DNA from: Oscillospiraceae bacterium
GTDB taxonomy: Bacteria; Bacillota; Clostridia; Oscillospirales; Oscillospiraceae
Assembly (NCBI GenBank): GCA_020025535.1
Contig: JAHHRY010000007.1
Location: 12,630 to 76,629, forward strand
DNA: 64,000 bases
Reading direction: 5' to 3'
Under the pieces are notes generated by a model. The model was not told where the DNA came from and made no database searches. It was given only the letters and a program-made list of their open reading frames with translations. Below are positions 9,304-33,825 of the stretch, piece after piece; the first letter of the stretch is position 1; each line of letters opens with the position of its first letter. Both the position numbers and the translations under genes were made by a program.

Positions 9304-9492
9304 AACAAAACCTCCTTTGCTGCTCCTATCATAGCAAAGGAGGTTTCTTTTGACGAATGTACGGGAAATTATTTTATTTGCCAGAGTAATTTTCGCAGAC
9401 GGATACCAAATATTCAAAACAACTGGATTTTGTTGAATTTAGAGATATTTTGTTGTATTATTATAATATGTTATTTTACAGGAGATAAAGAA

Positions 9493-13199: not shown

Positions 13200-13218
13200 A
13201 GAAAAGAGGTTGTGCTAA

Positions 13219-14907: not shown

Positions 14908-14951
14908 AGAATTTATGTACGGATAGAATTTTTAAAGGAGGGTACCTGTAA

Positions 14952-16400: not shown

Positions 16401-16933
16401 TTTTAACTTGCTGGTAACTTGCTGACAAATTAATATGCAGATAAAAAAGAGATTTATTATGCAGTTATAGAGGTATATTGGCCGTGTATATAAATAAATG
16501 TGATTATATAAGTAAATATTTAACTTGCTAACAATATGCTGATTGCTTTTGTGTCTATAATTGAAACACTATAAATTAAAGATAGTAAGAGAATAATATA
16601 AAAATGTTGGTAAGACTATATGGGGCTAAAATTTGCTATATAATTTTCATTAGGTTCTACAAGACTGAAAAGATATAAGTATAAATGAAGTGCCTGCTGT
16701 ATGTTTAAATCTCCAGTATAATATGAGGTATAAGGTGATAATGTAGCATGAGATGATAGTAAAAACGTTATAATTTATATATCTAATAGTAGAATTAGCA
16801 GACCATGACTTTATTTTTTGACATGAATGCTGAAGTTTCTGTACTAAAGTAGAAGAATCAAAATTGCTACTAGATCAAGGATGGTATAATTTAGCAGCTT
16901 CTAATAGGTAAAATTAGATTGGTGTAGAATAGA

Positions 16934-17248
16934 ATGGATAAAAACATAAAAAAGATAATTTATATTTCTGGATTATTTTTAATTATTGGCGGAAAGGATA
17001 TGCTGTTCACTTTATGGAGGGCTGTAGCACAAATATTTATGGCATTCTTTCCTATATTTAAAAATGTTGCAAAGCAAAAATTAGAAGACTATTTAACGTC
17101 TCCGTATTTTATTGTAAGTGTTATTATGGCGCTTGCTTCTACGGTAGGCATATGGTTTGGCCACAAAGGCGGTAAAATTCTATATACTGTCATATCGATT
17201 ATCCTGCTTTTGATTAATTTATTCAGCATTCTCGCAAATGTAGTATAA
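16934..17248 (+). CDS. Small hydrophobic (2-3 TM) protein in an AT-rich spacer
   Basis: 104-codon ORF in ~25% GC DNA, where stop codons are frequent, and strongly hydrophobic. Weak RBS. Confidence 0.3.
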   Translation: MDKNIKKIIYISGLFLIIGGKDMLFTLWRAVAQIFMAFFPIFKNVAKQKLEDYLTSPYFIVSVIMALASTVGIWFGHKGGKILYTVISIILLLINLFSILANVV

Positions 17249-17337
17249 TCTTTTGGGATATAGCAAACAAGAATACCGCTGCACAAACAAAATTTTGATT
17301 AGTTGTGATATAAACAAATTGCTAAGAAGGTGGTACT

Positions 17338-20300
17338 ATGTCTAACATTGGCGACAACGAACGCAAAACGCAAGATCGAGTAATTAAATTTTTCAGTGAC
17401 AAACTCCACTATACATATCTTGGAAATCTGCAGGATCAGGTCAACACCAATATCATGCAGGACCGGCTGCTGAACTGGCTGACCGAAAAGCAGGGATACT
17501 CTGAGAAGCTGGCCCAGCGTGCAGTTGCCGAGCTTTCCAAAACTACCGGAAATCTGCAGCAGGGTCTGTATCACGCAAACAAAGAGGTATACTCCCTTCT
17601 GAAATACGGTGCCAAGGTCAAGGAAAGTGCCGAGCAGTCCGAAACCACCGTTTACTTTATCAATTTTCAAAATCCGGCTGCCAATGACTTCGCCATTGCC
17701 GAAGAGGTGACTGTGGTGGAGAAAAATGAAAAGCGCCCGGATCTGGTAATCTATGTCAACGGTATTGCGTTAGCGGTCATAGAGCTGAAGAAGAGCAGTG
17801 TTTCTGTTTCCAATGGTATCCGCCAGAACCTTACCAATCAGAGAGCCAACTTTATTGAGAAGTTTTTCACGACGATTCAGTTCTGTATGGCAGGAAACAA
17901 CAGCGAAGGCCTGCGTTATGGTACTTTACTGACCCCGGAAAAGCACTATCTGGAGTGGAAAGCGGACGGCTTTACCCAGTTCCCGGAGGAGCGGGAAGAT
18001 ACGGATGTGAATATCGAGGAAGTTTGCAAATCCATTCCCAACAAGCTGGATATGCAGATTTATGCAATGTTCTACAAAAAGCGTTTCCTGGATCTAATTC
18101 ACAACTTTGTGATCTTCGATAAGGGCTATAAGAAGGTCTGCCGTTACAACCAGTATTATGCAATCAAACGGGCACAGCATCGGCTGAATGATAAGCACAG
18201 AGGCGGTATTATCTGGCACACACAGGGCAGCGGAAAGAGCCTGACCATGGTGTGGCTGTCTAAGTGGATTCTTTCCAATAATCCCCACGCCAGAGTCCTG
18301 GTTGTCACGGACCGGGAGGAACTGGATGACCAGATTGAGAAGACTTTTATTGGCGTAGACGAGAAAATTGTCCGGACCAGAAGCGGTAAAGACCTGCTGG
18401 AACGCCTCAACGCTTACGATGATAATCTGATATGTTCCCTGATTCACAAATTTGGCAGACGGGGTAGCGAAAGCACCGACGGCGATTATGAAAAGTATAT
18501 TGATGAGCTGAAAAAGGCTCTCCCCAAGGACTTTGTGGCTAAGGGCGACATAACGGTTTTTGTGGATGAATGTCACAGAACGCAGTCCGGAAAGCTCCAT
18601 GATGCCATGCGGGCAATTTTACCTAATGCAATTTTTATCGGCTTTACCGGCACCCCCCTCCTGAAAAAAGATAAGAAAACCAGCCTGGAAACCTTCGGCG
18701 GCTATATCCACACCTACAAATTTAACGAAGGCGTCCGGGATAAGGTCGTGCTGGATCTGCGCTATGAAGCCAGAGATATTCCTCAGAATCTTACCTCCCA
18801 GGCAAGAGTAGATGCCTGGTTTGATGCTAAAACAGTCGGCCTGACGCCCAGAGCAAAAGCCAAACTGAAAGCCCGCTGGGGAAATATCCAGAAGGTTTTC
18901 TCTTCCAAATCCAGATTGGAGCAGATTGCCAATGACATTATTTTTGACTTTGGAACCAAAGCCCGCCTGATGGATGGAAACGGAAATGCCATTCTGGTGG
19001 CAGGATCGGTGTATTCTGCGTGCCGGTATTATGAGATTTTCCAGAGCAAGGGATTCAAAAAATGTGCTGTTATTTCCTCCTATACGCCCAATGTGGGAGA
19101 TCTGCGGACGGACACTGTCAGCGAGGAAGAAGAAACAGAAACAGCAGAAAAATACAATATTTATCTGAAAATGATTGGAATTGATCCCAATGGGGATCAG
19201 AAACATATTGCAGGCAAAGTTGAGGAGTTTGAAAAGGAAGCAAAGAGAAAGTTTGTAGCAGAGCCTGCTAATATGAAGCTGTTGATTGTGGTAGACAAGC
19301 TTCTGACAGGCTTTGATGCCCCGCCATGTACCTATCTTTACATAGACAAGTCCATGCATGACCATGGGCTGTTTCAGGCAATCTGCCGTGTTAATCGGCT
19401 TGATGGCGAAAGCAAGGACTTTGGTTATATTGTTGACTATAAAGAACTCTTTGGCAATCTGGCTGATGCCATGAACAAGTATACTACTGGTGCATTTGAA
19501 GCCTACGATGCAGAAGATGTAGATGGCCTTTTGAAGGATCGTACTGAGGAATCCAAGAAATATTTTGAAGATACGCTGGAAGCGTTGGAAGAACTTTGCG
19601 AGGGTGTAGAAGCACCAAAGTCGGAACTGGAATATAATCACTATTTTTGCGGTGAAAGCGGCGTTGATACAGATCAGGATGAGGTATTTACACGCATCCG
19701 GGAGAAACTGTATAAGCTGGTTTCCCGCCTGGTTCGGGCATATGCAGAACTGAAATCCCGTATGGGTGAGGCTGGATATACAGAAGAAGAACAGCTTCGC
19801 ATGGACCGCAAAGTGACATTTTATGTGGAACTGAAGGAAACTATTGGCAGATCCAGTGGAGATTTTATTGATCTGAAAGCCTATGAGCCGGGAATGCGGT
19901 ATCTGGTTGATACCTATATTTCTGCAGAGGAGTCCAATACCATTGGTAATATGGAAGATTTCACGCTCCTGGATTTCATCCTTACGCAGGAGGGAAAACT
20001 GGAGGACGAATCTGATAAGAAAGGCCAGGATAGTGCAGCAGAAACCATTGAGAACAACATCCGAAAAAAAGTTGTTGAAAAAATGGTTATCAACCCGGCG
20101 TATTACGGAAAAATGTCTGCGATTTTGCAGCGGTTGATTGAAGATCGTAAAAAAGGCGTTATTCAGTATGGGCAGCTTTTGGATGCTTACATGGAACTTG
20201 CAAAAAAAGTGACAAATCCGGAAAAGAATTTCAGGTATCCAGAAAGCATTCGGTCCAGTGGCGCTAAGCGAGCATTGTATGACAACTGCGGTGAAGATGA

Positions 20301-20469
20301 AAAACTGGCCAATAAGCTGCATGATGCCGTAATGAAGTCTAAAATGGACGGTTTTCGGAATAACGCAGTCAAGGAAAATAAAATAAAATACGCTCTGTAC
20401 AAAGTCCTGAGAGATGATGATGAAGTGGACCGTATTTATCAGATCGTCGTGGAACAAGAGGAATACTGA
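17338..20469 (+). CDS. hsdR: Type I restriction enzyme endonuclease/helicase subunit (HsdR)
   Basis: 1043 aa with SF2 helicase motifs ('TQGSGKS', 'FVDECHR', 'GFTGTP'). AAGGTGG RBS. Confidence 0.9.
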   Translation: MSNIGDNERKTQDRVIKFFSDKLHYTYLGNLQDQVNTNIMQDRLLNWLTEKQGYSEKLAQRAVAELSKTTGNLQQGLYHANKEVYSLLKYGAKVKESAEQSETTVYFINFQNPAANDFAIAEEVTVVEKNEKRPDLVIYVNGIALAVIELKKSSVSVSNGIRQNLTNQRANFIEKFFTTIQFCMAGNNSEGLRYGTLLTPEKHYLEWKADGFTQFPEEREDTDVNIEEVCKSIPNKLDMQIYAMFYKKRFLDLIHNFVIFDKGYKKVCRYNQYYAIKRAQHRLNDKHRGGIIWHTQGSGKSLTMVWLSKWILSNNPHARVLVVTDREELDDQIEKTFIGVDEKIVRTRSGKDLLERLNAYDDNLICSLIHKFGRRGSESTDGDYEKYIDELKKALPKDFVAKGDITVFVDECHRTQSGKLHDAMRAILPNAIFIGFTGTPLLKKDKKTSLETFGGYIHTYKFNEGVRDKVVLDLRYEARDIPQNLTSQARVDAWFDAKTVGLTPRAKAKLKARWGNIQKVFSSKSRLEQIANDIIFDFGTKARLMDGNGNAILVAGSVYSACRYYEIFQSKGFKKCAVISSYTPNVGDLRTDTVSEEEETETAEKYNIYLKMIGIDPNGDQKHIAGKVEEFEKEAKRKFVAEPANMKLLIVVDKLLTGFDAPPCTYLYIDKSMHDHGLFQAICRVNRLDGESKDFGYIVDYKELFGNLADAMNKYTTGAFEAYDAEDVDGLLKDRTEESKKYFEDTLEALEELCEGVEAPKSELEYNHYFCGESGVDTDQDEVFTRIREKLYKLVSRLVRAYAELKSRMGEAGYTEEEQLRMDRKVTFYVELKETIGRSSGDFIDLKAYEPGMRYLVDTYISAEESNTIGNMEDFTLLDFILTQEGKLEDESDKKGQDSAAETIENNIRKKVVEKMVINPAYYGKMSAILQRLIEDRKKGVIQYGQLLDAYMELAKKVTNPEKNFRYPESIRSSGAKRALYDNCGEDEKLANKLHDAVMKSKMDGFRNNAVKENKIKYALYKVLRDDDEVDRIYQIVVEQEEY

Positions 20470-21179
20470 TGCAGATTGTAGTAGCAAATATCCCAGTAGA
20501 AGTAGTTAAGAAAAATATCAAAAATATGCATCTGTATGTTCTGCCACCGGATGGTCATGTCCGTGCATCAGTGCCGATGACGCTTTCAGATGAAGCGATT
20601 ACCATGTTTGTCAGGACCAAAATCAGCTGGGTTCGGAAACAACAGGAAAAATTTCAGAATCAGCCAAGACAGTCTGAGCGGGAATATGTGTCTGGAGAGA
20701 CATTTTATCTTTGGGGAAAGCAATATTATTTGCAGGTTGAATACAGCTACCAGGGAAATTCCCTTGTTTTATCCGGTGATAAAGCAATCTTGACGGTTCG
20801 AAAAGAAAGTACCGTAAAACAGCGTGAGAATTTTGTGCATGAATGGTACCGCAGTCAGTTGAAGAAGAAAATTGGTCAGCTGTTGCCCAAGTGGGAAAAA
20901 ATTACGGATTTACATCCCAGCGGTTGGCAGACGAAATACATGACTACCAAATGGGGCACATGTAATACGAAAACAAAGAAAATCTGGCTTAATCTGCAGC
21001 TTGCCAAAAAACCGGTGGAGTGTCTGGAGTATGTCATTCTCCATGAGCTGGCCCATCTTCGGGTAAAAAATCACGGCCCGGAATTTGTAGCAATTCTGGA
21101 CCAGTATATGCCTTTTTGGAGAGATACAAAGAAATTACTAAATGATTCAACCTTGGATTATTTTGGTAACGAAAGATAA
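20469..21179 (+). CDS. DUF45/YgjP (M48-like, WLM/SprT-like) zinc metallopeptidase associated with Type I R-M
   Basis: HExxH motif 'ILHELAHL'. Start overlaps the hsdR stop (TGATG). This family commonly follows hsdR. Confidence 0.75.
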   Translation: MQIVVANIPVEVVKKNIKNMHLYVLPPDGHVRASVPMTLSDEAITMFVRTKISWVRKQQEKFQNQPRQSEREYVSGETFYLWGKQYYLQVEYSYQGNSLVLSGDKAILTVRKESTVKQRENFVHEWYRSQLKKKIGQLLPKWEKITDLHPSGWQTKYMTTKWGTCNTKTKKIWLNLQLAKKPVECLEYVILHELAHLRVKNHGPEFVAILDQYMPFWRDTKKLLNDSTLDYFGNER

Positions 21180-21200
21180 TTTAAAGAGGGTGTGGGATAG

Positions 21201-23756
21201 ATGAAGGGTTCAGAGGCAAAACTGGTCTCCTATATGCAGGGATCTGACAAACGATTTGTGATCCCGGTATATCAGCGGAACTATGACTGGCGGTTGGATA
21301 ACTGCAAGCAATTATTTGACGATCTGGTAAAAATTATCAAGAAGAACCGTTCCAGCCATTTCTTTGGAAGTATTGTCTCAGTACATAACGAGGGCTCATT
21401 TAACGAGTTCCAGGTGATTGACGGACAGCAGCGGCTGACTACCATTTCGCTGCTGTTTCTGGCGATGTATAACCTGATGAAATCCGGGGCAGTGGTGCCG
21501 GCTCAGAAAAATCTGGCAGATAAGATTCTGAAAACTTATCTGATTGATGAGTGGCAGGAGGATGAAACCAGAATCAAGCTGAAACCCATTAAAAACGATC
21601 AAAAGGCGTTTGGCCTGCTGTTTCAGGATGCGGAGGACCATATTCCGGAATCCAATCTGACCATTAACTACAACTTTTTCTGCGACCAGATCAAAAAAGA
21701 GCGGATTACGGTGGACGAGCTGTACACTGCTATTACCCGACTGGAGATTATCAATATCACACTGAACCAGGAGGATAACCCTCAGCTGATCTTTGAGAGC
21801 CTCAACTCTACGGGACTTGCACTCAGCGAAGGTGATAAGATCCGCAATTTCATTCTGATGGGCCTGCCCGCCCGGGAACAAAACGAGTATTACGAAAAGT
21901 ACTGGAATAAAATAGAAGTCTGCACGAAATATGATGTCAGTTCCTTTGTCCGGGACTATTTGAGTGTGAAACAGCTGGAAATCCCGGCTATCAGCAAGGT
22001 GTATGCCACTTTTAAAGCATATGTGGAAGAAGCCAGCCTCACAACAGAGCAGCTACTGCAGGATCTTTTGGGGTATGCCAAGCGGTATCAGATTCTTCTG
22101 AAGGGACAAACAGAGGACAGAGCACTCAATGCCTGTATCTACCGTCTGAATCGACTGGAAACCACTGTTACAAGACCTTTCTTTATGGAAGTTCTGCGGC
22201 TGCATGAAAAAGAAAACGGAAGTGTTCTGACATTGCAGCAGGTTCGTGAAATTTTCTTGTTTACTGAAAATTATCTGTTCCGGAGAATGATCTGCGATCT
22301 GCAGACCAACACCCTGAATAAAATTTTTCTGCTGCTCCACAGAGAAATTATCCGGTTTGATGGTTCTTCCGATAACTATGGAGAAAAGTTTAAGTATGCC
22401 CTGCTGTCCAAAAATGATCGGGGCAGATTCCCCAGAGATGACGAATTCACGGAAGCATTTTCTGCCCGCCAGATCTATCAGATGAACAGTAAGAATAAAA
22501 TCTATATTTTTGAGCGCTTTGAAAATGCGGGGACGATTGAAGACAAGGATATTTATCGTCACTGTGATGAGGGCACTTATTCCATCGAGCATATTATGCC
22601 GCAGCATCTGACACCGGCCTGGGCAGAGGCTTTGGGGAATGATTATGAAGAAATTCACGAGCAGTGGCTGCATCGCATTGCTAACCTGACCCTGACTGCC
22701 TACAACTCCAAATACAGTAATAACTCGTTTGAAAATAAACGGGACCGGGAGGATGGCTTTGCTGCCAGCGGACTGCGGCTCAATACTTGGATTGCGGCTC
22801 AGAGTCAGTGGACCCTGACGGAGCTGAAAGCCCGAAATGACCTGCTAATGGAAAAAGCAGTAGGAATCTGGCCCGTTCCGGTCACAGACTACAAACCAGC
22901 AGAAAAACAGCTGGATTGCTATACACTGGAAGATGATGTGGATCTGAGTGGTCGTGAAATTATTCGCTTTGAGTATAAGAATACTTCGCAGCCGGTGACC
23001 AGTTGGATTGCCATGCAGGAACAAGTGCTGAAAATACTCCACGAAGAGGATGAATCAATTCTGTCTCAGCTGGCTCATGTCTGCAATCCCGATAATGAGC
23101 TCGATGTTTATGTCAGTGATAATCCTGCTGATTTACGTGGAGCACTGCAAATTGATGAAGGCATTTACCTGGAGAAAAATACCAGCACCACAACCAAGAT
23201 TTCCATGCTTCGGAAATTCTTTAAGGCGTACAACGCCAACCCAGAAAGTCTGGTATTTTACCTGAAGGATCCCGGCGAGGAGAATACTACAGCCGAAGCA
23301 GGAACTCGGTATGAGTTACGCAGAAAATATTGGGCATTTGCTCTGGATTATATCCACGAGGCTCATGGAACAAACGGAACATTCCGGTATGTCGGTCCAT
23401 CTAAAGAAAACTGGATTACCGGAGCTCTGGGAATCAGTGGATTCGGCATCTGTTGTGTGGCTAATTATGATCAGGCTAGAGTTGATCTGACATTGTCAAA
23501 ATCAGACAAGGAGAAAAACAAGTCTGCATTTGATTACCTGCTGGCACATAAAACGCAGATCGAAGCGCAGCTGGGGACACAGGTGGAATGGCAACGCAGC
23601 GAGGACACAAAGGGGTCTTACATTGTTTACCGTCTTACCGGTGTGGGTATTGACCATGAAACAGACTGGATCCGTATGGCAAAATTCCATGCAGAGTGGA
23701 GCAAGAAATTCTTTGATGTATTTGTGCCGCTGCTGCAGCAGTGGAATCTGCAGTAA
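21201..23756 (+). CDS. DUF262 + DUF1524 (GmrSD-like) Type IV modification-dependent restriction endonuclease
   Basis: DUF262 motifs 'IPVYQRNYDW' and 'DGQQRLTT'. DUF1524 His-Me finger 'EHIMPQ...W...IANLTL'. 851 aa. Confidence 0.8.
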   Translation: MKGSEAKLVSYMQGSDKRFVIPVYQRNYDWRLDNCKQLFDDLVKIIKKNRSSHFFGSIVSVHNEGSFNEFQVIDGQQRLTTISLLFLAMYNLMKSGAVVPAQKNLADKILKTYLIDEWQEDETRIKLKPIKNDQKAFGLLFQDAEDHIPESNLTINYNFFCDQIKKERITVDELYTAITRLEIINITLNQEDNPQLIFESLNSTGLALSEGDKIRNFILMGLPAREQNEYYEKYWNKIEVCTKYDVSSFVRDYLSVKQLEIPAISKVYATFKAYVEEASLTTEQLLQDLLGYAKRYQILLKGQTEDRALNACIYRLNRLETTVTRPFFMEVLRLHEKENGSVLTLQQVREIFLFTENYLFRRMICDLQTNTLNKIFLLLHREIIRFDGSSDNYGEKFKYALLSKNDRGRFPRDDEFTEAFSARQIYQMNSKNKIYIFERFENAGTIEDKDIYRHCDEGTYSIEHIMPQHLTPAWAEALGNDYEEIHEQWLHRIANLTLTAYNSKYSNNSFENKRDREDGFAASGLRLNTWIAAQSQWTLTELKARNDLLMEKAVGIWPVPVTDYKPAEKQLDCYTLEDDVDLSGREIIRFEYKNTSQPVTSWIAMQEQVLKILHEEDESILSQLAHVCNPDNELDVYVSDNPADLRGALQIDEGIYLEKNTSTTTKISMLRKFFKAYNANPESLVFYLKDPGEENTTAEAGTRYELRRKYWAFALDYIHEAHGTNGTFRYVGPSKENWITGALGISGFGICCVANYDQARVDLTLSKSDKEKNKSAFDYLLAHKTQIEAQLGTQVEWQRSEDTKGSYIVYRLTGVGIDHETDWIRMAKFHAEWSKKFFDVFVPLLQQWNLQ

Positions 23757-23778
23757 TAAACTTTGTATAACAAATAAG

Positions 23779-23804
23779 GCTGAGATCCATATGAATCTCA
23801 GCCT
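23779..23804 (+). terminator. Hairpin terminator after the GmrSD-like gene
   Basis: ggctgagat-ccatatga-atctcagcc, a perfect 9-bp stem 23 nt after the stop codon. Confidence 0.5.
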
Positions 23805-23825
23805 TGGCAAATTTATGGCAAAAAA

Positions 23826-23872
23826 GAGCTAACCCTCGATTGAATCTCTGACTTTCAATCGAGGGTTAGCTC
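23826..23872. repeat. Long perfect 19-bp inverted repeat (gagctaaccctcgattgaa / ttcaatcgagggttagctc)
   Basis: Read directly. A5 tract on the 5' side (plus strand) and no T tract on the 3' side, so it would terminate only minus-strand transcription. Confidence 0.5.
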
Positions 23873-24315
23873 TGATGAATTTCCGGACTTCTCATATTAC
23901 TGAGCCTCCTTCTATATGGAAACGATTTGTTTTTTTGTTCCTTTGTTGTGACTACAGAATACTATAGAAATCGGTGCTTTTCAATTGGCAGAGTCCTTAA
24001 AAAGCAGGGCTGAAAGTTAGAAAAAATGCGAATAGATAAGACCGAATAGAAATGATATGATAAGTATGTTGGGCAGCCTACAGACTGCCCATTTTTGACG
24101 AGAAACCGAAAACAGAAAAATATTACAGATGAGATACAGTATTGCTTAAACAGTATCTATGATATAGATTTTAACTGTGCAGTGTGTTATGATAAACAGG
24201 GAGATTTTTGGCGAAACGCAGTATATTTTGAATTATATGTTCTGACTTTGTCAAACCAGGTTAGTATGTTGGGTTGCTGAAAGCAACACTTATTAACTTT
24301 ACGGAGGCTAAGAAA

Positions 24316-27724: not shown

Positions 27725-28140
27725 CCTCTGATAGATAAAGAAAGTGGATTCAGCGGATCATTTGTGTGATTGTGGTACAGTGCGCTTTATGGCATCCGTT
27801 TCCGGACCGATGCCGGGAAACGTATTTACATGAGAGATTATCAAACGGGGCTGCATGGAACATGCTGCAGATTAGATGCATAAAATATGTACGCATCTGC
27901 CTGCGGCACCGGAATTTTGGGATGTTGATGAGCGCCCGAAGCACTCTGTTTCCGAACTTCCAAAGTCTGAGCAGAATACAGGAGATTCCACCGGCATTGA
28001 GAGCCTGGCTTCCAATGTGTACTTTCTGAATTGCCCAAAGGAGCAATGGAAGATATGCCCGCTGTCCCGGCATCAGACTTGCTTTTGCGCCGGCGAATCC
28101 ATAAGTGCGGCTGCGTGGCATCACGTTCCTAAAGAAATCA

Positions 28141-28185
28141 AAAAGGCTCCCCCATGCAGTTTTTTCTGCATGGGGGAGCCTTTTC
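28141..28185. terminator. Bidirectional intrinsic terminator
   Basis: aaaa-ggctcccccatgcag-ttttttc-tgcatgggggagcc-tttt. It lies downstream of the antiporter gene on the minus strand. Confidence 0.65.
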
Positions 28186-28288
28186 TGTTGCTGAGTTTTC
28201 GGGGCAGCCTGCGGTGCGGCACCGGAGCCGAAGAATCTCTGGCGGTTCTTCTGCGGGGACAGCGACCCAAAGGACACCCCTGAAACGC

Positions 28289-29512
28289 TTAACGGGAGTC
28301 CTGACCGTCGCTCGGACTTTCCTTTTTCAGCAGATGCGGATAGGCCAGATCCATGCCGATGGCACCGAGGGGAGCGGTTATCAGAATGGACAGCACGGCA
28401 ACCGACAAAACCAGTTTTCCGCAGGGGAGTCCCATGGAAAGAGGTACAGAACCGATAGCCGCCTGAACGGTAGCTTTCGGCAGGTAAGCAATCACACAGT
28501 AGAGACGCTCTTTAAAGTCCAGACGGGTACCCAGCAGGCAAAGCCATACGCCTATGGAACGGAACGTAAGACCCAGCAGGATCATCCACACCGCTTCAAG
28601 GCCGGCGTCCAGCGTATAGCGGATATCCACCGCGGCGCCTACCAGGACAAAGAGAATCAGCTCTGCAGCCAGCCAAAGCTTTCCGTATTTTTCCCGCAGC
28701 CGCTGCGCCACCGAGGGGACACTCCGCATGGCGATTACCAGAGACATACTCATAATGGCCAGCAGACCGGAGAAGGGGACGGTTCCTTCCAGCCATTCCT
28801 CCACCGTCAGAAGGAAAAAGGAAATACCCAGTATGATGATGACCTTGGTGCTGTTCCGGATCAGCTCGTGGTGTGCATAATACAGCTCAAACAGCCGGGA
28901 AAGGAACAGACCTACCAGCGCGCCTGTCAGCAGGCCCAGCAGAATGGAAATCGGAATTTTTGCCAGGGCCAGCATATGAACGCCGTTTCCCTGTGCCATT
29001 CCCAGAAAGGTGGTAAAAAGCACGATTACGAAAACGTCATCCAGCGAAGCACCTGCCAGAATGAGCTGGGGGATTTTCTTTTCCGTGCCCCAGTTCTGCT
29101 CCATCAGGGTCACCATACGGGGCACGACCACGGCGGGGGAAACGGCGCCCAGCACGGCACCCATCACTGCTGCCTCAATCCGGTTGATGCCCAAAATGGC
29201 CGGAGCAAAAAGAACGAAAGCGGAAATTTCAAAGAGGGCAGGCAGAAACGACATACATATGGCGGGACGGCCCACTTTTTTCAGATCGTCCAGATTCAGG
29301 GACAGACCCGCTTTGATGAGGATAATGACCAGTGCAAATTTTCTCAGTTCGGCGGAAATGCCCAGAATGGAACTGTCCAGCAGATCCAGAACGTATGGCC
29401 CCAGCAGGATGCCGGTGACCAGCATTCCGATGATCCGCGGAAGGTGAATTCTGCGGCAGATTGCAGCAGTGGAGAGTCCTACCAGAAAAACTAAAGACAA
29501 AGAAAATAACAT
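28289..29512 (-). CDS. Cation:proton (Na+/H+) antiporter, CPA1 family
   Basis: 407 aa polytopic membrane protein with Na+/H+-exchanger-like TM segments. Confidence 0.8.
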   Translation of the reverse strand: MLFSLSLVFLVGLSTAAICRRIHLPRIIGMLVTGILLGPYVLDLLDSSILGISAELRKFALVIILIKAGLSLNLDDLKKVGRPAICMSFLPALFEISAFVLFAPAILGINRIEAAVMGAVLGAVSPAVVVPRMVTLMEQNWGTEKKIPQLILAGASLDDVFVIVLFTTFLGMAQGNGVHMLALAKIPISILLGLLTGALVGLFLSRLFELYYAHHELIRNSTKVIIILGISFFLLTVEEWLEGTVPFSGLLAIMSMSLVIAMRSVPSVAQRLREKYGKLWLAAELILFVLVGAAVDIRYTLDAGLEAVWMILLGLTFRSIGVWLCLLGTRLDFKERLYCVIAYLPKATVQAAIGSVPLSMGLPCGKLVLSVAVLSILITAPLGAIGMDLAYPHLLKKESPSDGQDSR

Positions 29513-29889
29513 GATTTCCTCCTTTTGGGCGCAAAAAAGCCGATAACTTCTGCGCCTTAAAAATCACAGAAGTCATCAGCTGATTCAGCGGTTCAGGTTT
29601 CCCTAGGGAGAACTTCATTCCCGAGGACACATTATATCTGCCGAAGGAATAAAAATCAAGAGATACGCACGAAGAATTTCTGCGTTGCGTCAGGAAAGAC
29701 CGGGAAACAGGCATTTTTGCCGCGGAAAGCAAAGGATAGCCCGCTGCCGTTCGGGGTCGCCGGACAGCGGGCATAAAATTCTCCTGAATCCGTATTTTGG
29801 GGGATGGACAAACGGGAAAAAGTATGCAATAATGAGAAAGAATAAGGGTGTGTCCGGATCGGCTCCTTTGGGAGCGCAGATTTGAAGGA

Positions 29890-29937
29890 AAACTGCCGAG
29901 AAAGTTCTGTATAGGGACTTTCTCGGCATTTTTATAT
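29890..29937 (+). promoter_or_regulatory. Hairpin plus U-tract (terminator/attenuator-like) immediately upstream of the pabA RBS
   Basis: gccgagaaag-ttctgtataggga-ctttctcggc-atttttat, followed by the GGGAGG RBS. Confidence 0.4.
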
Positions 29938-29949
29938 GGGAGGTTCCGT

Positions 29950-30573
29950 ATGTATTTGATGATCGATAATTTTGACTCGTTTGTCTATAATCTGGCCTGC
30001 TATATGCAGGAGAGAGGGGCGCAGGTGCGCCTTGTACGCAGCGACCGGATCCGTGCGGAGGATTTGGAAGCGCTGCTGAAAGAAGGTGCGGAAGAAAGGC
30101 TGGAAGGGCTTATCCTGTCTCCCGGCCCCAAAAGCCCGCAGGACTGCGGAAACTGCAGGGAGATCCTGCTGCGTGCCGCCGGACGGGTTCCGGTCCTTGG
30201 GGTGTGTCTGGGACACCAGATCATCGGAAGCGTGTACGGCGCGGAGGTTTGCAAGGGAAAGCGGCCCATGCATGGAAAAATCAGCAGGATTGAGACAAAC
30301 GGAAGGAACCTGTTTGCAGGGCTTCCCGGCTCGTTCCGGGTGACCCGCTACCACTCTCTGGTGGTGAGCGACCGGGGCTTTCCCGATTGCCTGGAGGTGG
30401 ATGCCCGGGCGGAGGATGGGACAATTATGGCGCTGCATCACAAAAGTTTGCCGATTTACGGCGTGCAGTTCCATCCGGAGGCGGTGCTGACGGAGTACGG
30501 CCATGAGCTGCTGGAGAATTTTATGCGGATATGCGAACAATGGGGGAAGAGCCATGAAAACAGTCATTCGTAA
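29950..30573 (+). CDS. pabA: Aminodeoxychorismate/anthranilate synthase component II (class I glutamine amidotransferase)
   Basis: GATase triad region 'GVCLGHQ' and 'VQFHPE'. GGGAGG RBS. The ORF track frame starts 34 codons upstream. Confidence 0.85.
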   Translation: MYLMIDNFDSFVYNLACYMQERGAQVRLVRSDRIRAEDLEALLKEGAEERLEGLILSPGPKSPQDCGNCREILLRAAGRVPVLGVCLGHQIIGSVYGAEVCKGKRPMHGKISRIETNGRNLFAGLPGSFRVTRYHSLVVSDRGFPDCLEVDARAEDGTIMALHHKSLPIYGVQFHPEAVLTEYGHELLENFMRICEQWGKSHENSHS

Positions 30574-31912
30574 GCTGGATATTTACAAAGAAGCGGCAGC
30601 GATTTTTGAATGCTGCCAGAATGAGAAGATGGCGGCATTTCTGGATTCGTCTCTGGAGGGAGAGACCGGGCGGTACAGCGTGATTGGTCTGGACCCCTAT
30701 CTGATCCTGACGGAGGACGAGGGAGTTTTTTACCGCAATGGAGAGCCGCAGAAAGAAAGCTTTCTTCAGGGGCTGAACCAGGCACTGGAAAGCGCAAGAG
30801 AGGACAATCCGACGTCGCTTCCGCTGATTTCGGGAGCGCTGGGATATTTTTCCTATGACTTCGGAAGAAAGTTTGAGCACATCTCTACACGCCACCCCAG
30901 AAAACTGCGGGTGCCGGATGCGGTGTTTGCCTTTTACGATGTTCTCATTATCGAAGACAAGACGGAAAAGGCCCTTTATCTCACAGCCCGGGGAGAAAAA
31001 CGCCCCCCGGAGCAGGCGTTTCGGGAGGTGGAAGCGGAGATTCGTCAGTGCCGGGAGACGGTACAGCCGGAAAGACATCCGGGACTGGCACCCTTTACGC
31101 CGAATTTCGAGAAGGAGGACTACAAGGCTGCCATTGACCGGGTGATCTCCTATATCGTGGAGGGGGACATCTATATTGCCAATATGACCCAGCAGCTGAC
31201 GGTGAAAAGCGGCAGGACACCCTATGAGGTCTACCGCTATCTGCGTACCTATAATCCCGCACCTTTCAGCGCCTTTTTCCAATACGGAGATTTTCAGGTG
31301 ATCTGCTCCTCACCGGAGCGGTTCCTGCAGGTCAAAGACGGAAAGGTAGAGACAAGACCCATCAAGGGCACCCGGAAGCGGGGCAGGACTGCCAAGGAAG
31401 ACGAAGCCCTTCGCAAAGAGCTTGAAAACTCCGAGAAGGATCACAGCGAGCTGCTGATGATCGTGGATCTGGAGCGGAACGACCTGAATCATGTCTGTCA
31501 GCCGGGAACCGTGGAGGTAACGGAGCATTTTGCCGTGGAGACCTATGCCACGGTGTTTCATCTGGTTACCACCATCGTGGGCAGGCTTGGGCAGGAATGC
31601 ACGCCGGGTGCCCTGATGGAAGCGGCTTTCCCCGGAGGCTCCATCACCGGTGCACCTAAGATACGGGCAATGGAAATTATTGACGAACTGGAACATGACC
31701 GCCGGAATCTGTATACCGGCTCTTTGGGATATTTTTCTCTGAACGGGGACTGTGATCTGAATATCATCATCCGTACCGCTGTCCATCAGGACGGACAGTA
31801 TACGCTGGGCGTGGGCGGCGGTATTACCTGTGAGTCGGAGCCGGAATTTGAGTATGAAGAGACCCTTCAAAAGGCAAAGGCTCTTTTGGAGGCCATGTGG
31901 GAGGAAAGATAA
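30554..31912 (+). CDS. pabB: Aminodeoxychorismate synthase component I (chorismate-binding enzyme)
   Basis: Chorismate-binding-domain motifs ('SPERFL', 'PIKGT', 'PGGSITGAPK'). Overlaps pabA. Confidence 0.85.
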   Translation: MKTVIRKLDIYKEAAAIFECCQNEKMAAFLDSSLEGETGRYSVIGLDPYLILTEDEGVFYRNGEPQKESFLQGLNQALESAREDNPTSLPLISGALGYFSYDFGRKFEHISTRHPRKLRVPDAVFAFYDVLIIEDKTEKALYLTARGEKRPPEQAFREVEAEIRQCRETVQPERHPGLAPFTPNFEKEDYKAAIDRVISYIVEGDIYIANMTQQLTVKSGRTPYEVYRYLRTYNPAPFSAFFQYGDFQVICSSPERFLQVKDGKVETRPIKGTRKRGRTAKEDEALRKELENSEKDHSELLMIVDLERNDLNHVCQPGTVEVTEHFAVETYATVFHLVTTIVGRLGQECTPGALMEAAFPGGSITGAPKIRAMEIIDELEHDRRNLYTGSLGYFSLNGDCDLNIIIRTAVHQDGQYTLGVGGGITCESEPEFEYEETLQKAKALLEAMWEER

Positions 31913-32652
31913 TGTTTACACCGGACGACGGGTATTATTTTGGTTTGGGAGCCTTTGAGACCATCGCACTGGAGGAGGGAAGACCGCAGTTTCTCCGGGA
32001 GCATCTGCAGAGACTGGAGACGGCACTGAAATTTTTCTCTCTCCCGGTTTCCGTGGAACAGATCCGGGAGGCGGTGGAAGAAGCCCTGTCCCGGCAGGAG
32101 GCAAGACAGGGCCGCAGAGCACTGAAGGTGGCGGTTTCCCGGGAGAATCTGCTGGTTACCACCCGGGAAAATCCCTATTGCCGGGAGGACTATCTTCAGG
32201 GCTTCGACACAGATTATTCTGCCATCCGGCGCAACGAGACATCTCCTTTTTCCTATCATAAGACGCTGAACTGCGGGGACGGAATCTGGGAGAAGCGGCG
32301 GGCTGCGGCAGCCGGAATCCGGGAGCCGATTTTCCTGAATACCCGGGGACAGATTGCCGAAGGCGCGACGACCAACGTGTTTTTTATCCGGGAAGGCAGG
32401 CTGGTGACGCCGCCTCTTTCCTGTGGAATGCTTCCGGGCATTCTGCGAGCCTATCTCTGCCGAATCTATGAGACAGAAGAAAAAATCGTGCTGCCGGAAG
32501 AGGTTGCGGAGTATGAGGAGATGTTTGTGACCAATTCCCTGCTGGGTATCATGCCGGTGCGGCGGCTTGGACAGCATACGTTTTCCGGTATGGAGAGGGG
32601 ACTGGCGCTGGCCCGTATGTTTTTTGACAGTCATCCCGGGGAAGAGGTGTAA
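31912..32652 (+). CDS. pabC: Aminodeoxychorismate lyase-like (class IV aminotransferase fold)
   Basis: Class-IV aminotransferase fold, inferred from operon position and length. Translationally coupled to pabB (TAATG). Confidence 0.65.
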   Translation: MFTPDDGYYFGLGAFETIALEEGRPQFLREHLQRLETALKFFSLPVSVEQIREAVEEALSRQEARQGRRALKVAVSRENLLVTTRENPYCREDYLQGFDTDYSAIRRNETSPFSYHKTLNCGDGIWEKRRAAAAGIREPIFLNTRGQIAEGATTNVFFIREGRLVTPPLSCGMLPGILRAYLCRIYETEEKIVLPEEVAEYEEMFVTNSLLGIMPVRRLGQHTFSGMERGLALARMFFDSHPGEEV

Positions 32653-32656
32653 TAGG

Positions 32657-33550
32657 ATGGCAGAGACGGTTTCCGGTACCGCTCCCGGAAAAATGCTGGT
32701 GGAGCGGACAAGCCAGACCGACAGCACCCGGGTGCAGATCGGAGAAGCCCGGATCGGCGGCGGGGGTTTTTCTTTCCTTGCAGGTCTGAGAAAGGCATGG
32801 AACGAGGAAAACATAAAGAATCTGAAGCAAACAGGCGCTGCCTGCATCTGGGCGGAAGAAACGGACGACCGGAATCCCGGGGAAGAACGTCTGAGCCTGC
32901 TGACGGCGGCAGGAAAAAAAGCCGGTCTGCCGGTGATTGCCTCTGTTTCTTCCATTCGGGCGCTGCCGCTTCTGGAAAAGGCGGATGCCGTTTTGACAGA
33001 GGGACGGAGTATGCAGGATTATGAGTTGCTCCGAGCATTGGGCAGACTCAGAAAACCGGTGATTCTCACAAGGAATGCAGGCAGCACGCCGGAGGAGCTG
33101 CTTATGGCCGGGGAGTACCTGCTGAGCGGCGGCAACGGGCAGGTGATTTTCTGCGAGCAGGGAACCCGTACCTTTTCTTCTCCCACCGGGAGAAGTCTGG
33201 ATCTGACGGTAGCTCTGTGGCTTCGCAGCCGGACGCACCTGCCGATTATTGTGGATCCCGGTCCCACCGTACAGACGGAGGAGGCACTCAGCGCGATGAT
33301 TCTGGCGGCTGCGGCAGCGGGAGTGGACGGAGTGATGTTCCGGCTGGGAACGGAGGGAGACGTACCGGGGCTTTCGCCGGAGACCTTCCGGCGGACGGCG
33401 GAGCACACGCAGGCACTGCTTGCGGCGCTGGGCAGGCCGGATGTGCCGCACCCGGATGACGGACGGCTTCGTGAGAGCGCCGGGGCGCCGGTGGCTGCCT
33501 GCGAACAGGAGGCAGAAAAGCATACGCGGGCAAGCACTTTGGCGGTTTGA
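32657..33550 (+). CDS. DAHP synthase (AroF/KdsA)-family homolog with degenerate catalytic motifs
   Basis: Strong similarity to the DAHPS barrel ('KPVILTRN...EYLLSGGNGQVIFCEQGTRTF...HLPIIVDP'). The conserved Cys (AGPCS), KPRTS and DPSH positions are replaced. Confidence 0.7.
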   Translation: MAETVSGTAPGKMLVERTSQTDSTRVQIGEARIGGGGFSFLAGLRKAWNEENIKNLKQTGAACIWAEETDDRNPGEERLSLLTAAGKKAGLPVIASVSSIRALPLLEKADAVLTEGRSMQDYELLRALGRLRKPVILTRNAGSTPEELLMAGEYLLSGGNGQVIFCEQGTRTFSSPTGRSLDLTVALWLRSRTHLPIIVDPGPTVQTEEALSAMILAAAAAGVDGVMFRLGTEGDVPGLSPETFRRTAEHTQALLAALGRPDVPHPDDGRLRESAGAPVAACEQEAEKHTRASTLAV

Positions 33551-33613
33551 AATGGAACGCCTGAGCTGTCGGAAGTGACCCGGAGTTCCTACCCGCCCCC
33601 GGCAACTGAAAAA

Positions 33614-33650
33614 AGTCCTGAAATCATAGGATTTCAGGACTTTTTCTTTT
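33614..33650 (+). terminator. Intrinsic terminator of the pab operon
   Basis: agtcctgaaatc-atag-gatttcaggact followed by a T run. Confidence 0.7.
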
Positions 33651-33825
33651 CTGAGCGCATAGGAATCTTTGAAAGGCTGTTTTTTGAATCAGACCGGAGG
33701 CCAGCGGCAGTTCCGTGCAGAGAATGCCGCCTTGTCAGCGATACAAAAATAGCACTGAAATTTCTACAAATTATAAAAGAGAAGATGTGTTTTTTGTGTT
33801 GCAAAATGTATTTAACGATGATAGA

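What the first reader, a model, noticed from the sequence alone, without database searches (positions are those of the whole stretch)
32657..33550. DAHP-synthase homolog with degenerate catalytic motifs as the fourth gene of the pabABC operon
The protein aligns well to the DAHPS/KDO8PS (AroF-type) barrel ('KPVILTRNAGSTPEELLMAGEYLLSGGNGQVIFCEQGTRTF', 'HLPIIVDP'). At the positions that are catalytic or ligand-binding in characterised DAHPS (the metal Cys in 'AGPCSVES', the phosphate-binding 'KPRTSP', the His in 'DPSH'), this protein has 'FLAGLRK', 'EETDDRN' and 'DPGPT'. It is therefore probably a pseudoenzyme or has a new activity. It ends the pab operon and shares its terminator with it.
Basis: partly seen in the sequence, partly recalled or inferred. 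Interest (0 to 1): 0.6.

Follow-up and report, generated by a model that had tools for sequence, protein, structure and literature searches.

The report
Dead DAHP-synthase copy in pABA operon
The last gene of this bacterium's p-aminobenzoate (folate precursor) operon is a copy of the first enzyme of the aromatic pathway that has lost its whole catalytic machinery yet is still kept by natural selection, so it probably has a non-catalytic or new job; it is known from only three related gut-type bacteria.

Summary
Window 32657-33550 (+) encodes a 297-aa protein that is a clear homologue of type I-beta DAHP synthase (PDB 1VS1, E 7e-33; AlphaFold model TM 0.82-0.88 to DAHPS barrels). It scores far below every curated DAHPS cut-off. 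It has lost all four metal ligands, four of six PEP ligands and the erythrose-4-phosphate loop, and two active-site loops are 6-7 residues shorter. It is translationally coupled to pabC (5-nt gap, good RBS) and followed by a strong terminator.

Only three such proteins exist in about 15 billion searched. All three lie after pabA-pabB-pabC in one narrow Lachnospiraceae-like clade. A dozen sister pab operons lack any such gene.

It is not a pseudogene: dN/dS is 0.25-0.29 (bootstrap maximum 0.49), against 0.08-0.18 for pabABC.

Best reading: a DAHPS-derived pseudoenzyme kept as a non-catalytic, ligand-binding or partner subunit of the chorismate-to-pABA branch. The partner and ligand are inferred, not shown. 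A new enzymatic activity, modulation of the housekeeping DAHPS, or a slowly decaying relic remain possible.

In passing: the operon has a conserved, covarying leader RNA that overlaps a terminator and matches no Rfam family. It is a riboswitch candidate.

The parts
29805..29833 (+). Promoter-like site of the pab operon (TGGACA-17-AATAAT, TG-extended)
   Evidence: Consensus scan, 10 of 12 matches. The position is conserved in alignment A3. Function is not shown.
29847..29897 (+). Conserved leader RNA element: GGUGUGYCC, a variable hairpin, then GAARACUGCC. It is a riboswitch or attenuator candidate that would control the whole operon, including the DAHPS-like gene.
   Evidence: Conserved in 17 pabA leaders. 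The Y:R pair covaries (C:G 13 times, U:A 4 times, no exception) and the P2 stem covaries. 93% of cells are paired against 16-55% in slid registers. No Rfam match.
29894..29935 (+). Leader intrinsic terminator (15-bp hairpin plus T-run). Its 5' arm overlaps the 3' strand of the leader element.
   Evidence: Terminator scan. Folds have z-scores of -2.8 to -5.2.
29950..30573 (+). pabA (glutamine amidotransferase component II)
   Evidence: PF00117 183 bits; TIGR00566 trpG_papA 198 bits, above its cut-off of 121.
30554..31912 (+). pabB (aminodeoxychorismate synthase component I)
   Evidence: TIGR00553 pabB 365 bits, above its cut-off of 328. The nearest named homologues are Blautia/Lachnospiraceae ADC synthases.
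31912..32652 (+). pabC (aminodeoxychorismate lyase, class IV aminotransferase fold)
   Evidence: PF01063 170 bits. The best NCBIfam hits are ADC lyase models, all below their cut-offs.
32642..32649 (+). Ribosome-binding site AAGAGGTG for the DAHPS-like gene, inside the 3' end of pabC
   Evidence: Read directly from the sequence. It lies 7 nt before the ATG at 32657.
32657..33550 (+). DAHPS type I-beta-derived barrel protein (297 aa) without the catalytic residues. The barrel is residues 13-262. Residues 263-297 are a lineage-specific, low-confidence tail.
32789..32791 (+). Codon 45 (Arg; Ser in the two relatives) at the position of the metal-binding Cys
   Evidence: Alignment A2: Cys in 96% of 82 DAHPS.
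32849..32851 (+). Codon 65 (Trp, invariant in the family) at the position of the PEP-binding Arg of 'LRGG'
   Evidence: Residue role from PMC6362186.
33068..33070 (+). Codon 138 (Thr, invariant in the family) at the position of the PEP-binding Lys of 'LKRG'
33263..33265 (+). Codon 203 (Pro; Ala in the relatives) at the position of the metal-binding His of 'DPSH'
33341..33343 (+). Codon 229 (Arg, invariant in the family) at the position of the metal-binding Glu of 'EVH'
33610..33655 (+). Operon terminator (16-bp hairpin AAAAAGTCCTGAAATC/GATTTCAGGACTTTTT plus T-run), 60 nt after the stop codon

Best explanation
The gene encodes a (beta/alpha)8 barrel that descends from a type I-beta DAHP synthase lacking the N-terminal regulatory domain. 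It can no longer condense PEP with erythrose-4-phosphate: the metal site, most of the PEP site and the E4P loop are gone. Selection keeps it as a protein. It is made together with PabA, PabB and PabC from one leader-controlled transcript and is translationally coupled to pabC. The most likely role is a non-catalytic pseudoenzyme subunit of the chorismate-to-pABA branch. The remodelled barrel mouth keeps Arg117 and Arg171, has gained Trp65 and Arg229, and also holds Arg139, Glu167, Asp121 and Asp200. I infer that it binds an anionic chorismate-derived ligand (chorismate, aminodeoxychorismate, pABA or pyruvate) and/or that the barrel docks onto a Pab enzyme to scaffold or tune it. This would resemble the way true DAHPS barrels pair with chorismate mutase. 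Shown here: homology, loss of catalytic residues, operon membership, purifying selection, narrow distribution. Inferred: absence of DAHPS activity, and ligand or partner binding.
For: Fold and ancestry. Loss of function-defining residues: 0 of 4 metal ligands, 2 of 6 PEP ligands, E4P loop shortened by 7 and the beta8 loop by 6 residues (residue roles from PMC6362186). Scores are 129-144 bits against curated DAHPS cut-offs of 268-335. Kept by selection: three intact ORFs at 56-77% identity. Omega is 0.25-0.29 with a 95% bootstrap range of 0.16-0.41 and no replicate above 0.49, at dS 0.6-1.4. All four quarters of the barrel are constrained in the least-saturated pair (L001-L003), most strongly residues 131-200. 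Seventeen formerly DAHPS-invariant positions are fixed to a new residue shared by all three members, for example Arg to Trp65, Lys to Thr138 and Glu to Arg229. So the remodelling predates their divergence. Co-expression: 5-nt gap, RBS, no terminator before 33610, and the same pabA-pabB-pabC-X order in the other two lineages. GC3 of 0.66 matches the neighbouring genes. Precedents: DAHPS barrels act as physical partners of chorismate-using enzymes (DAH7PS-CM complexes and fusions, PMC8408635; CM-PDT-DAHPS fusions). DAHPS copies sit next to ADC synthase genes in the chloramphenicol cluster (cmlE/cmlB, PMC4249514).
Against: No partner or ligand has been demonstrated, and no tool here could model a complex. 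The former active-site positions are no more conserved within the family than ordinary positions (49% against 43% invariant), and the Cys and His positions vary. This argues against a sharply defined new pocket, although three sequences give little power. Omega is about twice that of pabABC, so constraint is relaxed. The family is extremely rare: three proteins, one 50% cluster, and none in 185,579 GTDB species representatives. About a dozen sister pab operons work without it. Any role is therefore dispensable for pABA synthesis in general.
Confidence: 0.45

Rival explanations
1. Neofunctionalised enzyme. The barrel keeps two substrate-binding arginines (Arg117, Arg171) and has acquired Trp65, Thr138, Asp121 and Arg229. 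It would catalyse a new, metal-independent reaction on an enolpyruvyl or carboxylate compound of the pABA or folate branch.
For: Purifying selection. Seventeen new residues are fixed at formerly invariant DAHPS positions, several at the C-terminal ends of beta strands where TIM-barrel active sites lie. The pocket remains polar and charged rather than collapsed. The enolpyruvyl side chain of chorismate and ADC derives from PEP (established pathway knowledge).
Against: pabA, pabB and pabC already provide the complete known route, and sister operons lack a fourth gene. Former ligand positions such as 45, 96, 168, 203 and 231 differ among the three members, which is unusual for a catalytic site. 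Two active-site loops are shortened. No similarity to any other enzyme family was found.
Confidence: 0.2
2. Modulator of the housekeeping DAHPS. The dead subunit lacks a regulatory domain. It would co-assemble with the organism's catalytic I-beta DAHPS tetramer and weaken feedback inhibition by aromatic amino acids. Chorismate would then keep flowing whenever the pab operon is switched on.
For: I-beta DAHPS are homotetramers in which regulatory domains of opposite subunits pair to close the active sites (PMC8408635). The family lacks that N-terminal domain but keeps the barrel core, with 39 of 74 invariant positions retained. The strongest constraint is on residues 131-200. That stretch includes Leu183, the equivalent of the P. 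furiosus tetramer-interface residue Ile181; this mapping is from memory of PDB entry 4C1L (an I181D interface mutant) and was not verified structurally. The nearest true DAHPS are Clostridia shikimate-operon enzymes that carry the regulatory domain. The logic of dedicated, unregulated DAHPS copies in chorismate-consuming clusters is established (cmlE, phzC).
Against: Identity to the nearest true DAHPS is only 36-43%. No interface analysis or complex model was possible. The organism's own DAHPS is not in the window. The idea is purely inferential.
Confidence: 0.12
3. Evolutionary relic. A once-active, operon-dedicated DAHPS copy lost activity and is drifting towards loss. The remaining constraint would reflect only avoidance of misfolding or toxic products, or preservation of translational coupling and mRNA stability.
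For: Distribution is extremely narrow. It evolves about twice as fast as its neighbours (omega 0.25-0.29 against 0.08-0.18; 56-59% identity against 70-84%). The N-terminal region and the C-terminal tail are variable. Former catalytic positions are no more conserved than average.
Against: The ORF has stayed open with only in-frame indels over dS of about 1.3. Omega is significantly below 1 in every pair, and in every region of the least-saturated pair. The degenerate state is shared by all three members and therefore old. The predicted fold is confident, with 190 residues at pLDDT 90 or above. No sampled relative shows the supposed active intermediate at this position.
Confidence: 0.15
4. It is still a working DAHP synthase with an unusual active site.
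For: Clear DAHPS homology. Dedicated DAHPS genes next to ADC synthase genes are known.
Against: All four metal ligands, Lys and Arg of KPRT, Lys of LKRG and His of DPSH are absent, and two loops are deleted. The reaction depends on a divalent metal (PMC8408635). Scores are less than half of the curated equivalog cut-offs.
Confidence: 0.03

Closest known systems
Type I-beta DAHP synthase (EC 2.5.1.54; e.g. A. pernix 1VS1, P. furiosus 1ZCO, T. maritima 1RZM catalytic barrel)
   Same: Homologous (beta/alpha)8 barrel with the N-terminal beta-hairpin: 33-43% identity, E down to 7e-33, TM 0.82-0.88. It retains Arg of GAR, Arg of GIRTF, the 'CE.G.RTF' and 'LPI.VDP' strands and many core residues, 39 of 74 invariant columns in all.
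   Different: No metal ligands. No KPRTSPY loop, no Lys of LKRG and no His of DPSH. Loops beta2-alpha2 and beta8-alpha8 are shortened. It lies in a pab operon instead of a shikimate operon and scores below all curated thresholds.
Pathway-dedicated DAHPS isozymes in chorismate- or ADC-consuming clusters (CmlE next to ADC synthase CmlB in the chloramphenicol cluster; PhzC in phenazine operons)
   Same: A DAHPS-family gene co-located and co-expressed with chorismate-utilising or ADC-forming genes, and lacking allosteric domains.
   Different: PhzC has been shown to be a catalytically competent, PEP- and metal-binding type II DAHPS, and CmlE is annotated as a DAHPS homologue. The window protein is type I-beta-derived and has lost the catalytic residues. 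It belongs to a primary-metabolism pab operon of a Lachnospiraceae-like bacterium.
DAH7PS-chorismate mutase assemblies (non-covalent M. tuberculosis complex; Geobacillus, Listeria and Prevotella fusions)
   Same: A DAHPS barrel serves as a physical or allosteric partner of an enzyme that acts on chorismate (PMC8408635). This is the mechanistic analogy for the proposed role.
   Different: In those systems the DAHPS is itself active and the partner is chorismate mutase. Here the barrel is catalytically dead, the candidate partners are PabA, PabB and PabC, and no interaction has been shown.
HisZ-type pseudoenzyme subunits (a catalytically dead histidyl-tRNA synthetase paralogue that regulates ATP phosphoribosyltransferase). 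Cited from general knowledge, not tested here.
   Same: The concept is the same: a paralogue of a metabolic or housekeeping enzyme has lost catalysis, is retained under selection, and is encoded with the pathway it serves.
   Different: Unrelated fold and pathway. HisZ is widespread and its partnership is biochemically proven. This family has three known members and no experimental data.

Membership tests
DAHP synthase type I-beta (functional enzyme) | Homologous (beta/alpha)8 barrel of the PF00793 superfamily | tested here: met
   Pfam 74 bits against a cut-off of 25.5. Foldseek TM 0.82-0.88 to 1VS1, 1ZCO and 3PG8.
DAHP synthase type I-beta (functional enzyme) | Four divalent-metal ligands Cys, His, Glu, Asp | tested here: not met
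   Cys is Arg45 (Ser in relatives). His is Pro203 (Ala in relatives). Glu is Arg229. The Asp loop is deleted (ligand roles from PMC6362186).
DAHP synthase type I-beta (functional enzyme) | PEP-binding residues: Arg and Lys of RGGAFKPRT, Ala/Ser-Arg of GAR, Lys of LKRG, Arg of GIRTF | tested here: not met
   Only Arg117 and Arg171 are kept. Arg is replaced by Trp65, Lys by Asp70 or a gap, and Lys by Thr138.
DAHP synthase type I-beta (functional enzyme) | E4P-binding KPRT(S)PY loop | tested here: not met
   The loop is 7 residues shorter and reads 'EETDDRN-P'. In the two relatives the segment reads 'EADAQGQRAAHF' / 'DADAAGQRSAHF' and is gapped at the K-P-R-x-S columns.
DAHP synthase type I-beta (functional enzyme) | Score above the curated NCBIfam thresholds (TIGR01361, NF006421, NF009239) | tested here: not met
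   129 against 268, 144 against 335, and 110 against 279 bits.
DAHP synthase type I-beta (functional enzyme) | Catalyses PEP + E4P to DAHP | not testable with these tools
   Needs an enzyme assay or complementation of an aroFGH mutant.
KDO8P synthase | Sequence membership (NF009109 or PDB KDO8PS) | tested here: not met
   16.6 bits against a cut-off of 457. PDB KDO8PS hits reach only E 1e-6 to 0.07 with 14-19% identity.
Operon-dedicated DAHPS isozymes (CmlE/PhzC-like) | Encoded with chorismate- or ADC-utilising genes | tested here: met
   It directly follows pabA-pabB-pabC in three lineages.
Operon-dedicated DAHPS isozymes (CmlE/PhzC-like) | Intact catalytic site | tested here: not met
   See the metal and PEP rows above.
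Pseudoenzyme accessory subunit (HisZ-like concept) | Enzyme homologue lacking catalytic residues but under purifying selection | tested here: met
   Omega 0.25-0.29, bootstrap maximum 0.49. Intact ORFs at 56-77% identity.
Pseudoenzyme accessory subunit (HisZ-like concept) | Physical or functional partnership with a catalytic protein | not testable with these tools
   No multimer modelling or experiment was available. Only co-transcription and translational coupling are seen.
pabABC operon | Same strand, no intervening terminator, coupled start, conserved synteny | tested here: met
   5-nt gap and RBS. Strong terminators occur only at 29894-29928 (leader) and 33610-33645. Synteny holds in L001/L002, L003 and L145.

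The most novel reading that the evidence does not exclude
The dead DAHPS barrel is a genuine allosteric or scaffolding subunit. It would bind either the ADC synthase/lyase enzymes or the housekeeping DAHPS and sense a chorismate-derived ligand through its remodelled Trp/Arg pocket. It would then be the first pseudoenzyme of the DAHPS/KDO8PS superfamily and a newly evolved way of partitioning chorismate towards folate. The whole module sits under a previously undescribed leader RNA switch.
Probability: 0.3. Interest if true: 0.7.

Novelty: new variant of a known kind. Interest (0 to 1): 0.45.

Why it matters
DAHP synthase is a textbook case of how one catalytic barrel acquires regulation by recruiting extra domains or partner proteins. 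A lineage in which the barrel has given up catalysis, yet is retained inside an operon that consumes the pathway's end product, would show the reverse route: the enzyme becomes the accessory module. If a partner or ligand is found, it offers a young, tractable example of pseudoenzyme birth in bacterial primary metabolism, since three sequences and sister operons without the gene are all available. It would also give a handle on how gut Lachnospiraceae secure pABA and folate synthesis when aromatic amino acids are abundant. If nothing is found, it is a well-documented case of a slowly dying paralogue, and annotation pipelines should not call it a DAHP synthase. Separately, the conserved pabA leader RNA noticed here may be an undescribed riboswitch class controlling pABA synthesis in Clostridia.

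Tried and rejected
(1) P0121 and P0122 (423 and 465 aa) scored above ordinary DAHPS in the exhaustive profile search and looked like possible PabC fusions or further family members. Their sequences are tandemly duplicated or chimeric true DAHPS with intact CSVES, KPRTSP and DPSH motifs. Rejected.

(2) The scan of 185,579 GTDB species genomes with family-specific peptide patterns returned only ordinary DAHPS at 30-42% identity and no family member.

(3) Long hits of 520-700 aa were checked for Pab-DAHPS fusions. Nine of the ten are combinations of chorismate mutase, prephenate dehydratase and ACT domains fused to DAHPS, and one is an amidohydrolase-DAHPS fusion. None involves PabA, PabB or PabC.

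(4) A neighbour-joining tree meant to locate the donor clade put the family on a long stem outside all 82 DAHPS. This is long-branch behaviour and uninformative.

(5) Literature searches for a DAHPS pseudoenzyme, for I-beta interface residues and for a pabA riboswitch found nothing pertinent.

(6) No second DAHPS gene is present in the 64-kb window.

(7) The Pfam NAD_binding_10 hit (E 0.012, 16 bits against a cut-off of 27) was disregarded as noise.

(8) The long antisense ORFs over pabC and the gene (31867-32955 and 32549-33523, minus strand) have no support. They were treated as GC-rich artefacts because the plus-strand genes have strong homology.

(9) Rfam: no family matches the pabA leader, even at E up to 10 on 126 nt. 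The trpB-motif hit of 14.8 bits against a gathering score of 59 is noise.

(10) 106 of the 120 metagenome matches to the leader pattern had no PabA homologue detected downstream: 97 had none and are presumably chance matches, and 9 had too little downstream sequence to test. All were discarded.
Full report
**1. What is at the coordinates**

It starts 5 nt after the TAA of the upstream gene. The sequence AAGAGGTG lies 7 nt before the ATG, inside the end of that gene.

The three upstream genes are:
- pabA: PF00117, and TIGR00566 above its cut-off.
- pabB: TIGR00553 at 365 bits, above its cut-off of 328.
- pabC: a class IV aminotransferase whose best NCBIfam hits are ADC lyase models, all below their cut-offs.

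The genes overlap or abut (pabA/pabB by 20 nt, pabB/pabC by 1 nt). The only strong terminator-like hairpins on this strand are one in the 5' leader (29894-29928) and one 60 nt after the fourth gene (33610-33645 plus a T-run). The description 'fourth gene of the pab operon, sharing its terminator' is therefore correct as far as sequence can show.

**2. Homology and fold**

- Pfam DAHP_synth_1 matches at 74 bits.
- NCBIfam type I-beta DAHPS models match at 110-144 bits.
- Solved I-beta DAHPS structures (A. pernix 1VS1, T. maritima 1RZM/1VR6/3PG8, P. furiosus 1ZCO, Geobacillus 5J6F, Listeria 3NVT) match at E 7e-33 to 4e-26. KDO8P synthases reach only E 1e-6.
- An AlphaFold2 model built on an 85-sequence alignment has mean pLDDT 84 and pTM 0.81. 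It shows eight beta-alpha units plus the N-terminal hairpin.
- Foldseek places the model on I-beta DAHPS barrels with target TM 0.82-0.88.
- The protein begins exactly at the linker before the barrel. The ferredoxin-like regulatory domain (PF18152) of most of its nearest true relatives is absent.

**3. The catalytic machinery is gone**

I aligned the protein and its two close relatives with 82 true DAHPS (A2) and tabulated the columns that at least 90% of the true enzymes share. Residue roles are those listed for I-beta enzymes in PMC6362186.

| Site | True DAHPS | Window protein (relatives) |
|---|---|---|
| Metal ligand | Cys | Arg45 (Ser) |
| Metal ligand | His | Pro203 (Ala) |
| Metal ligand | Glu | Arg229 (invariant) |
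| Metal ligand, also E4P | Asp | lies in a 6-residue deletion |
| PEP | Arg of RGG | Trp65 (invariant) |
| PEP | Lys of KPRT | Asp70 (gap) |
| PEP | Ala/Ser of GAR | Gly116 (invariant) |
| PEP | Arg of GAR | retained as Arg117 |
| PEP | Lys of LKRG | Thr138 (invariant) |
| PEP | Arg of GIRTF | retained as Arg171 |
| E4P | KPRTSPY loop | 7 residues shorter, unrecognisable |

Pairwise HMMER alignments to 1VS1, 4GRS and 5J6F show the same substitutions. The residues are therefore not merely displaced.

Of 74 near-invariant DAHPS columns, the family keeps 39 and has lost 35. All curated equivalog or subfamily thresholds are missed by a factor of two or more. Because the reaction depends on a divalent metal (PMC8408635), I infer that the protein cannot make DAHP. 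This is inference, not measurement.

**4. How common is it**

- A search of 5.8 billion protein clusters found the protein itself (P0001, which differs from the window protein at one residue, Val112 to Ile) and only two relatives: P0002 and P0003, at 56-59% identity to the window protein and 77% to each other. Everything else is ordinary DAHPS at 43% identity or less.
- An exhaustive HMMER profile search of 1.84 billion cluster representatives found one family cluster only. The next two hits are tandem-duplicated true DAHPS.
- None of 185,579 GTDB species representatives has it.
- Both relatives lie directly after pabA-pabB-pabC (L001/L002, L003). The same holds for the independent assembly of the window organism (L145).
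- PabB's nearest named relatives are Blautia and Lachnospiraceae.
- Sister pab operons with PabB at 49-73% identity are abundant in gut metagenomes. They end at pabC and contain no DAHPS-like sequence, true or degenerate (L019-L024, L044, L059, L065, L067, L085, L094).

The fourth gene is therefore a clade-specific addition to an ancestrally three-gene operon. No 'still active' intermediate was found.

**5. Pseudogene or protein**

Nei-Gojobori estimates on codon alignments of the three operons:

| Gene | omega |
|---|---|
| DAHPS-like gene | 0.25-0.29 |
| pabA | 0.11-0.18 |
| pabB | 0.08-0.10 |
| pabC | 0.11-0.18 |

For the DAHPS-like gene, dS is 0.58 for L001-L003 and about 1.3 for the window against either relative.

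- Bootstrap 95% ranges are 0.16-0.41, and no replicate of 1000 exceeds 0.49.
- In the least-saturated pair (L001-L003), all four quarters of the barrel are constrained. Residues 131-200 are the most constrained (0.13-0.19 across the three pairs).
- The N-terminal 75 residues are the least constrained part in comparisons with the window (0.54 against L003; not estimable against L001 because dS is saturated).
- All indels are in frame.
- GC3 is 0.66, against 0.63-0.69 for the neighbours, so there is no sign of recent import.
- Seventeen formerly invariant DAHPS positions carry the same new residue in all three members: Trp65, Ser118, Asp121, Thr138, Thr170, Gly178, Gly202, Arg229 and others. Eighteen more vary.

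The remodelling is therefore older than the divergence of the three lineages, and the gene has been kept since. It evolves about twice as fast as its neighbours. The old active-site positions are, as a group, no more conserved than the rest (49% against 43% invariant).

**6. Mechanism**

Shown: a DAHPS-derived barrel without catalytic residues, co-transcribed and translationally coupled with PabABC, under purifying selection, and restricted to one clade.

Inferred: the residues now at the C-terminal ends of the strands are Leu44, Trp65, Arg117, Ser118, Asp121, Thr138, Arg139, Glu167, Arg171, Asp200 and Arg229. Together they still form a polar, arginine-rich mouth with a new aromatic residue. 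Such a site could hold a carboxylate-bearing aromatic or enolpyruvyl compound such as chorismate, ADC, pABA or pyruvate. Arg229 may simply fill the former metal site.

DAHPS barrels are known to work as physical partners of chorismate-handling enzymes (DAH7PS-CM complexes and fusions, and fusions). DAHPS genes are also known next to ADC synthase genes (cmlE/cmlB; compare phzC).

I therefore favour a non-catalytic accessory role, either ligand-binding or scaffolding, in the pABA branch (confidence 0.45). The rivals are:
- a new enzymatic activity (0.20);
- a relic on its way out (0.15);
- a subunit that co-assembles with the housekeeping DAHPS and blunts its feedback inhibition (0.12);
- residual DAHPS activity (0.03).

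None of these could be separated further with the tools available. No multimer modelling or coordinates were accessible, and three sequences give little site-level power.

**7. Comparison with known families**

It works, at most, like a pseudoenzyme subunit (the HisZ concept) or like the DAHPS half of DAH7PS-CM assemblies. It is a member of the PF00793 superfamily by descent. It fails every functional criterion of DAHP synthase that could be tested: metal ligands, PEP and E4P residues, curated thresholds and genomic context. It should not be annotated as 3-deoxy-7-phosphoheptulonate synthase. I found no report of a DAHPS-family pseudoenzyme in the searchable literature.

**8. Verdict**

Novelty: a new variant of a known kind, namely a pseudoenzyme derivative of a well-studied enzyme in a pathway-related operon.

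Interest is moderate (0.45). It would surprise DAHPS specialists and it is experimentally tractable. Against that, it is confined to three sequences, is dispensable in sister lineages, and has no demonstrated function.

**9. Side observation: the pabA leader RNA**

All 17 pabA leaders examined share the blocks GGUGUGYCC and GAARACUGCC around a variable hairpin. This includes the three four-gene operons and 14 three-gene operons with PabA at 51-67% identity.

- The Y and R positions covary perfectly (C:G 13 times, U:A 4 times). The search pattern did not force this.
- The base of the hairpin covaries (AU, GC, UA, CG).
- 93% of cells pair, against 16-55% in slid registers. The covariation score exceeds all 500 shuffles.
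- The 3' block is also the 5' arm of a strong intrinsic terminator, so the two structures exclude each other.
- No Rfam 15 family matches.
- The architecture (P1, conserved internal loop, P2) recalls THF-II (PMC6800512). The sequence, the taxa, the associated gene and the expression platform all differ.

This is a candidate riboswitch or attenuator for pABA synthesis, and it also governs expression of the DAHPS-like gene.

Noticed in passing
window 29847-29935 (+); also L001:184-270, L003:912-1000, L019:4315-4385, L022, L023, L040, L041, L043, L044, L048, L062, L065, L067, L085, L094, L095, L132: A conserved leader RNA lies upstream of pabA in many Clostridia: GGUGUGYCC, a variable hairpin, then GAARACUGCC. 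The Y:R pair covaries perfectly (C:G 13 times, U:A 4 times) and the P2 stem covaries. Its 3' strand doubles as the 5' arm of an intrinsic terminator. There is no Rfam match even at E up to 10, and no paper on it was found. It is a candidate new riboswitch or attenuator controlling pABA synthesis.
   Followed up: partly
window 29560-29631 (-) and 28289-29512 (-): A fluoride riboswitch (RF01734, 46 bits against a gathering score of 34, E 2e-10) lies upstream of a 407-aa Na+/H+ exchanger-family membrane protein (PF00999). It is transcribed divergently from the pab operon.
   Followed up: partly
window ~9400-24000 (+), GC 0.37-0.46 against about 0.53 elsewhere: A low-GC defence island. It carries a type I R-M methylase HsdM (9430-11943) and HsdR (17338-20469), an OLD-like AAA/TOPRIM nuclease (13219-14907), a Schlafen/AlbA_2 protein (14952-16400), a YgjP-like peptidase (20469-21179) and a GmrSD-type restriction enzyme (21201-23756).
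   Followed up: partly
window 28132-28191 (both strands): A hairpin or palindrome matches several unrelated miRNA and ctRNA models on both strands, all well below gathering score. It is probably a bidirectional terminator between convergent genes.
   Followed up: no
window 33443-33547 (+), residues 263-297 of the DAHPS-like protein: The window protein has a 35-residue C-terminal extension (GC 0.68, mostly pLDDT around 45-52) that the two orthologues lack. It is a lineage-specific tail, possibly created by a shifted stop codon.
   Followed up: no
L019:1-4158, L020, L021, L024 (sister loci): In sister lineages pabABC lies divergently next to a folate operon: folC, folE, an HD-domain gene, folP, folB-folK. 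In the window and in L001/L003 this neighbourhood is different, so the clade with the fourth gene has also relocated the pab operon.
   Followed up: partly
proteins P0121, P0122 and P0126-P0179: Two true DAHPS have an internally duplicated barrel segment, which may be assembly chimeras or real tandem duplications. Many CM-PDT(-ACT)-DAHPS multi-domain fusions occur, and one amidohydrolase-DAHPS fusion (P0128).
   Followed up: no
window 31867-32955 (-) and 32549-33523 (-): Two very long antisense ORFs (362 and 324 aa) overlap pabC and the DAHPS-like gene. They were not searched for homology and are most likely a by-product of high GC and codon bias on the coding strand.
   Followed up: no
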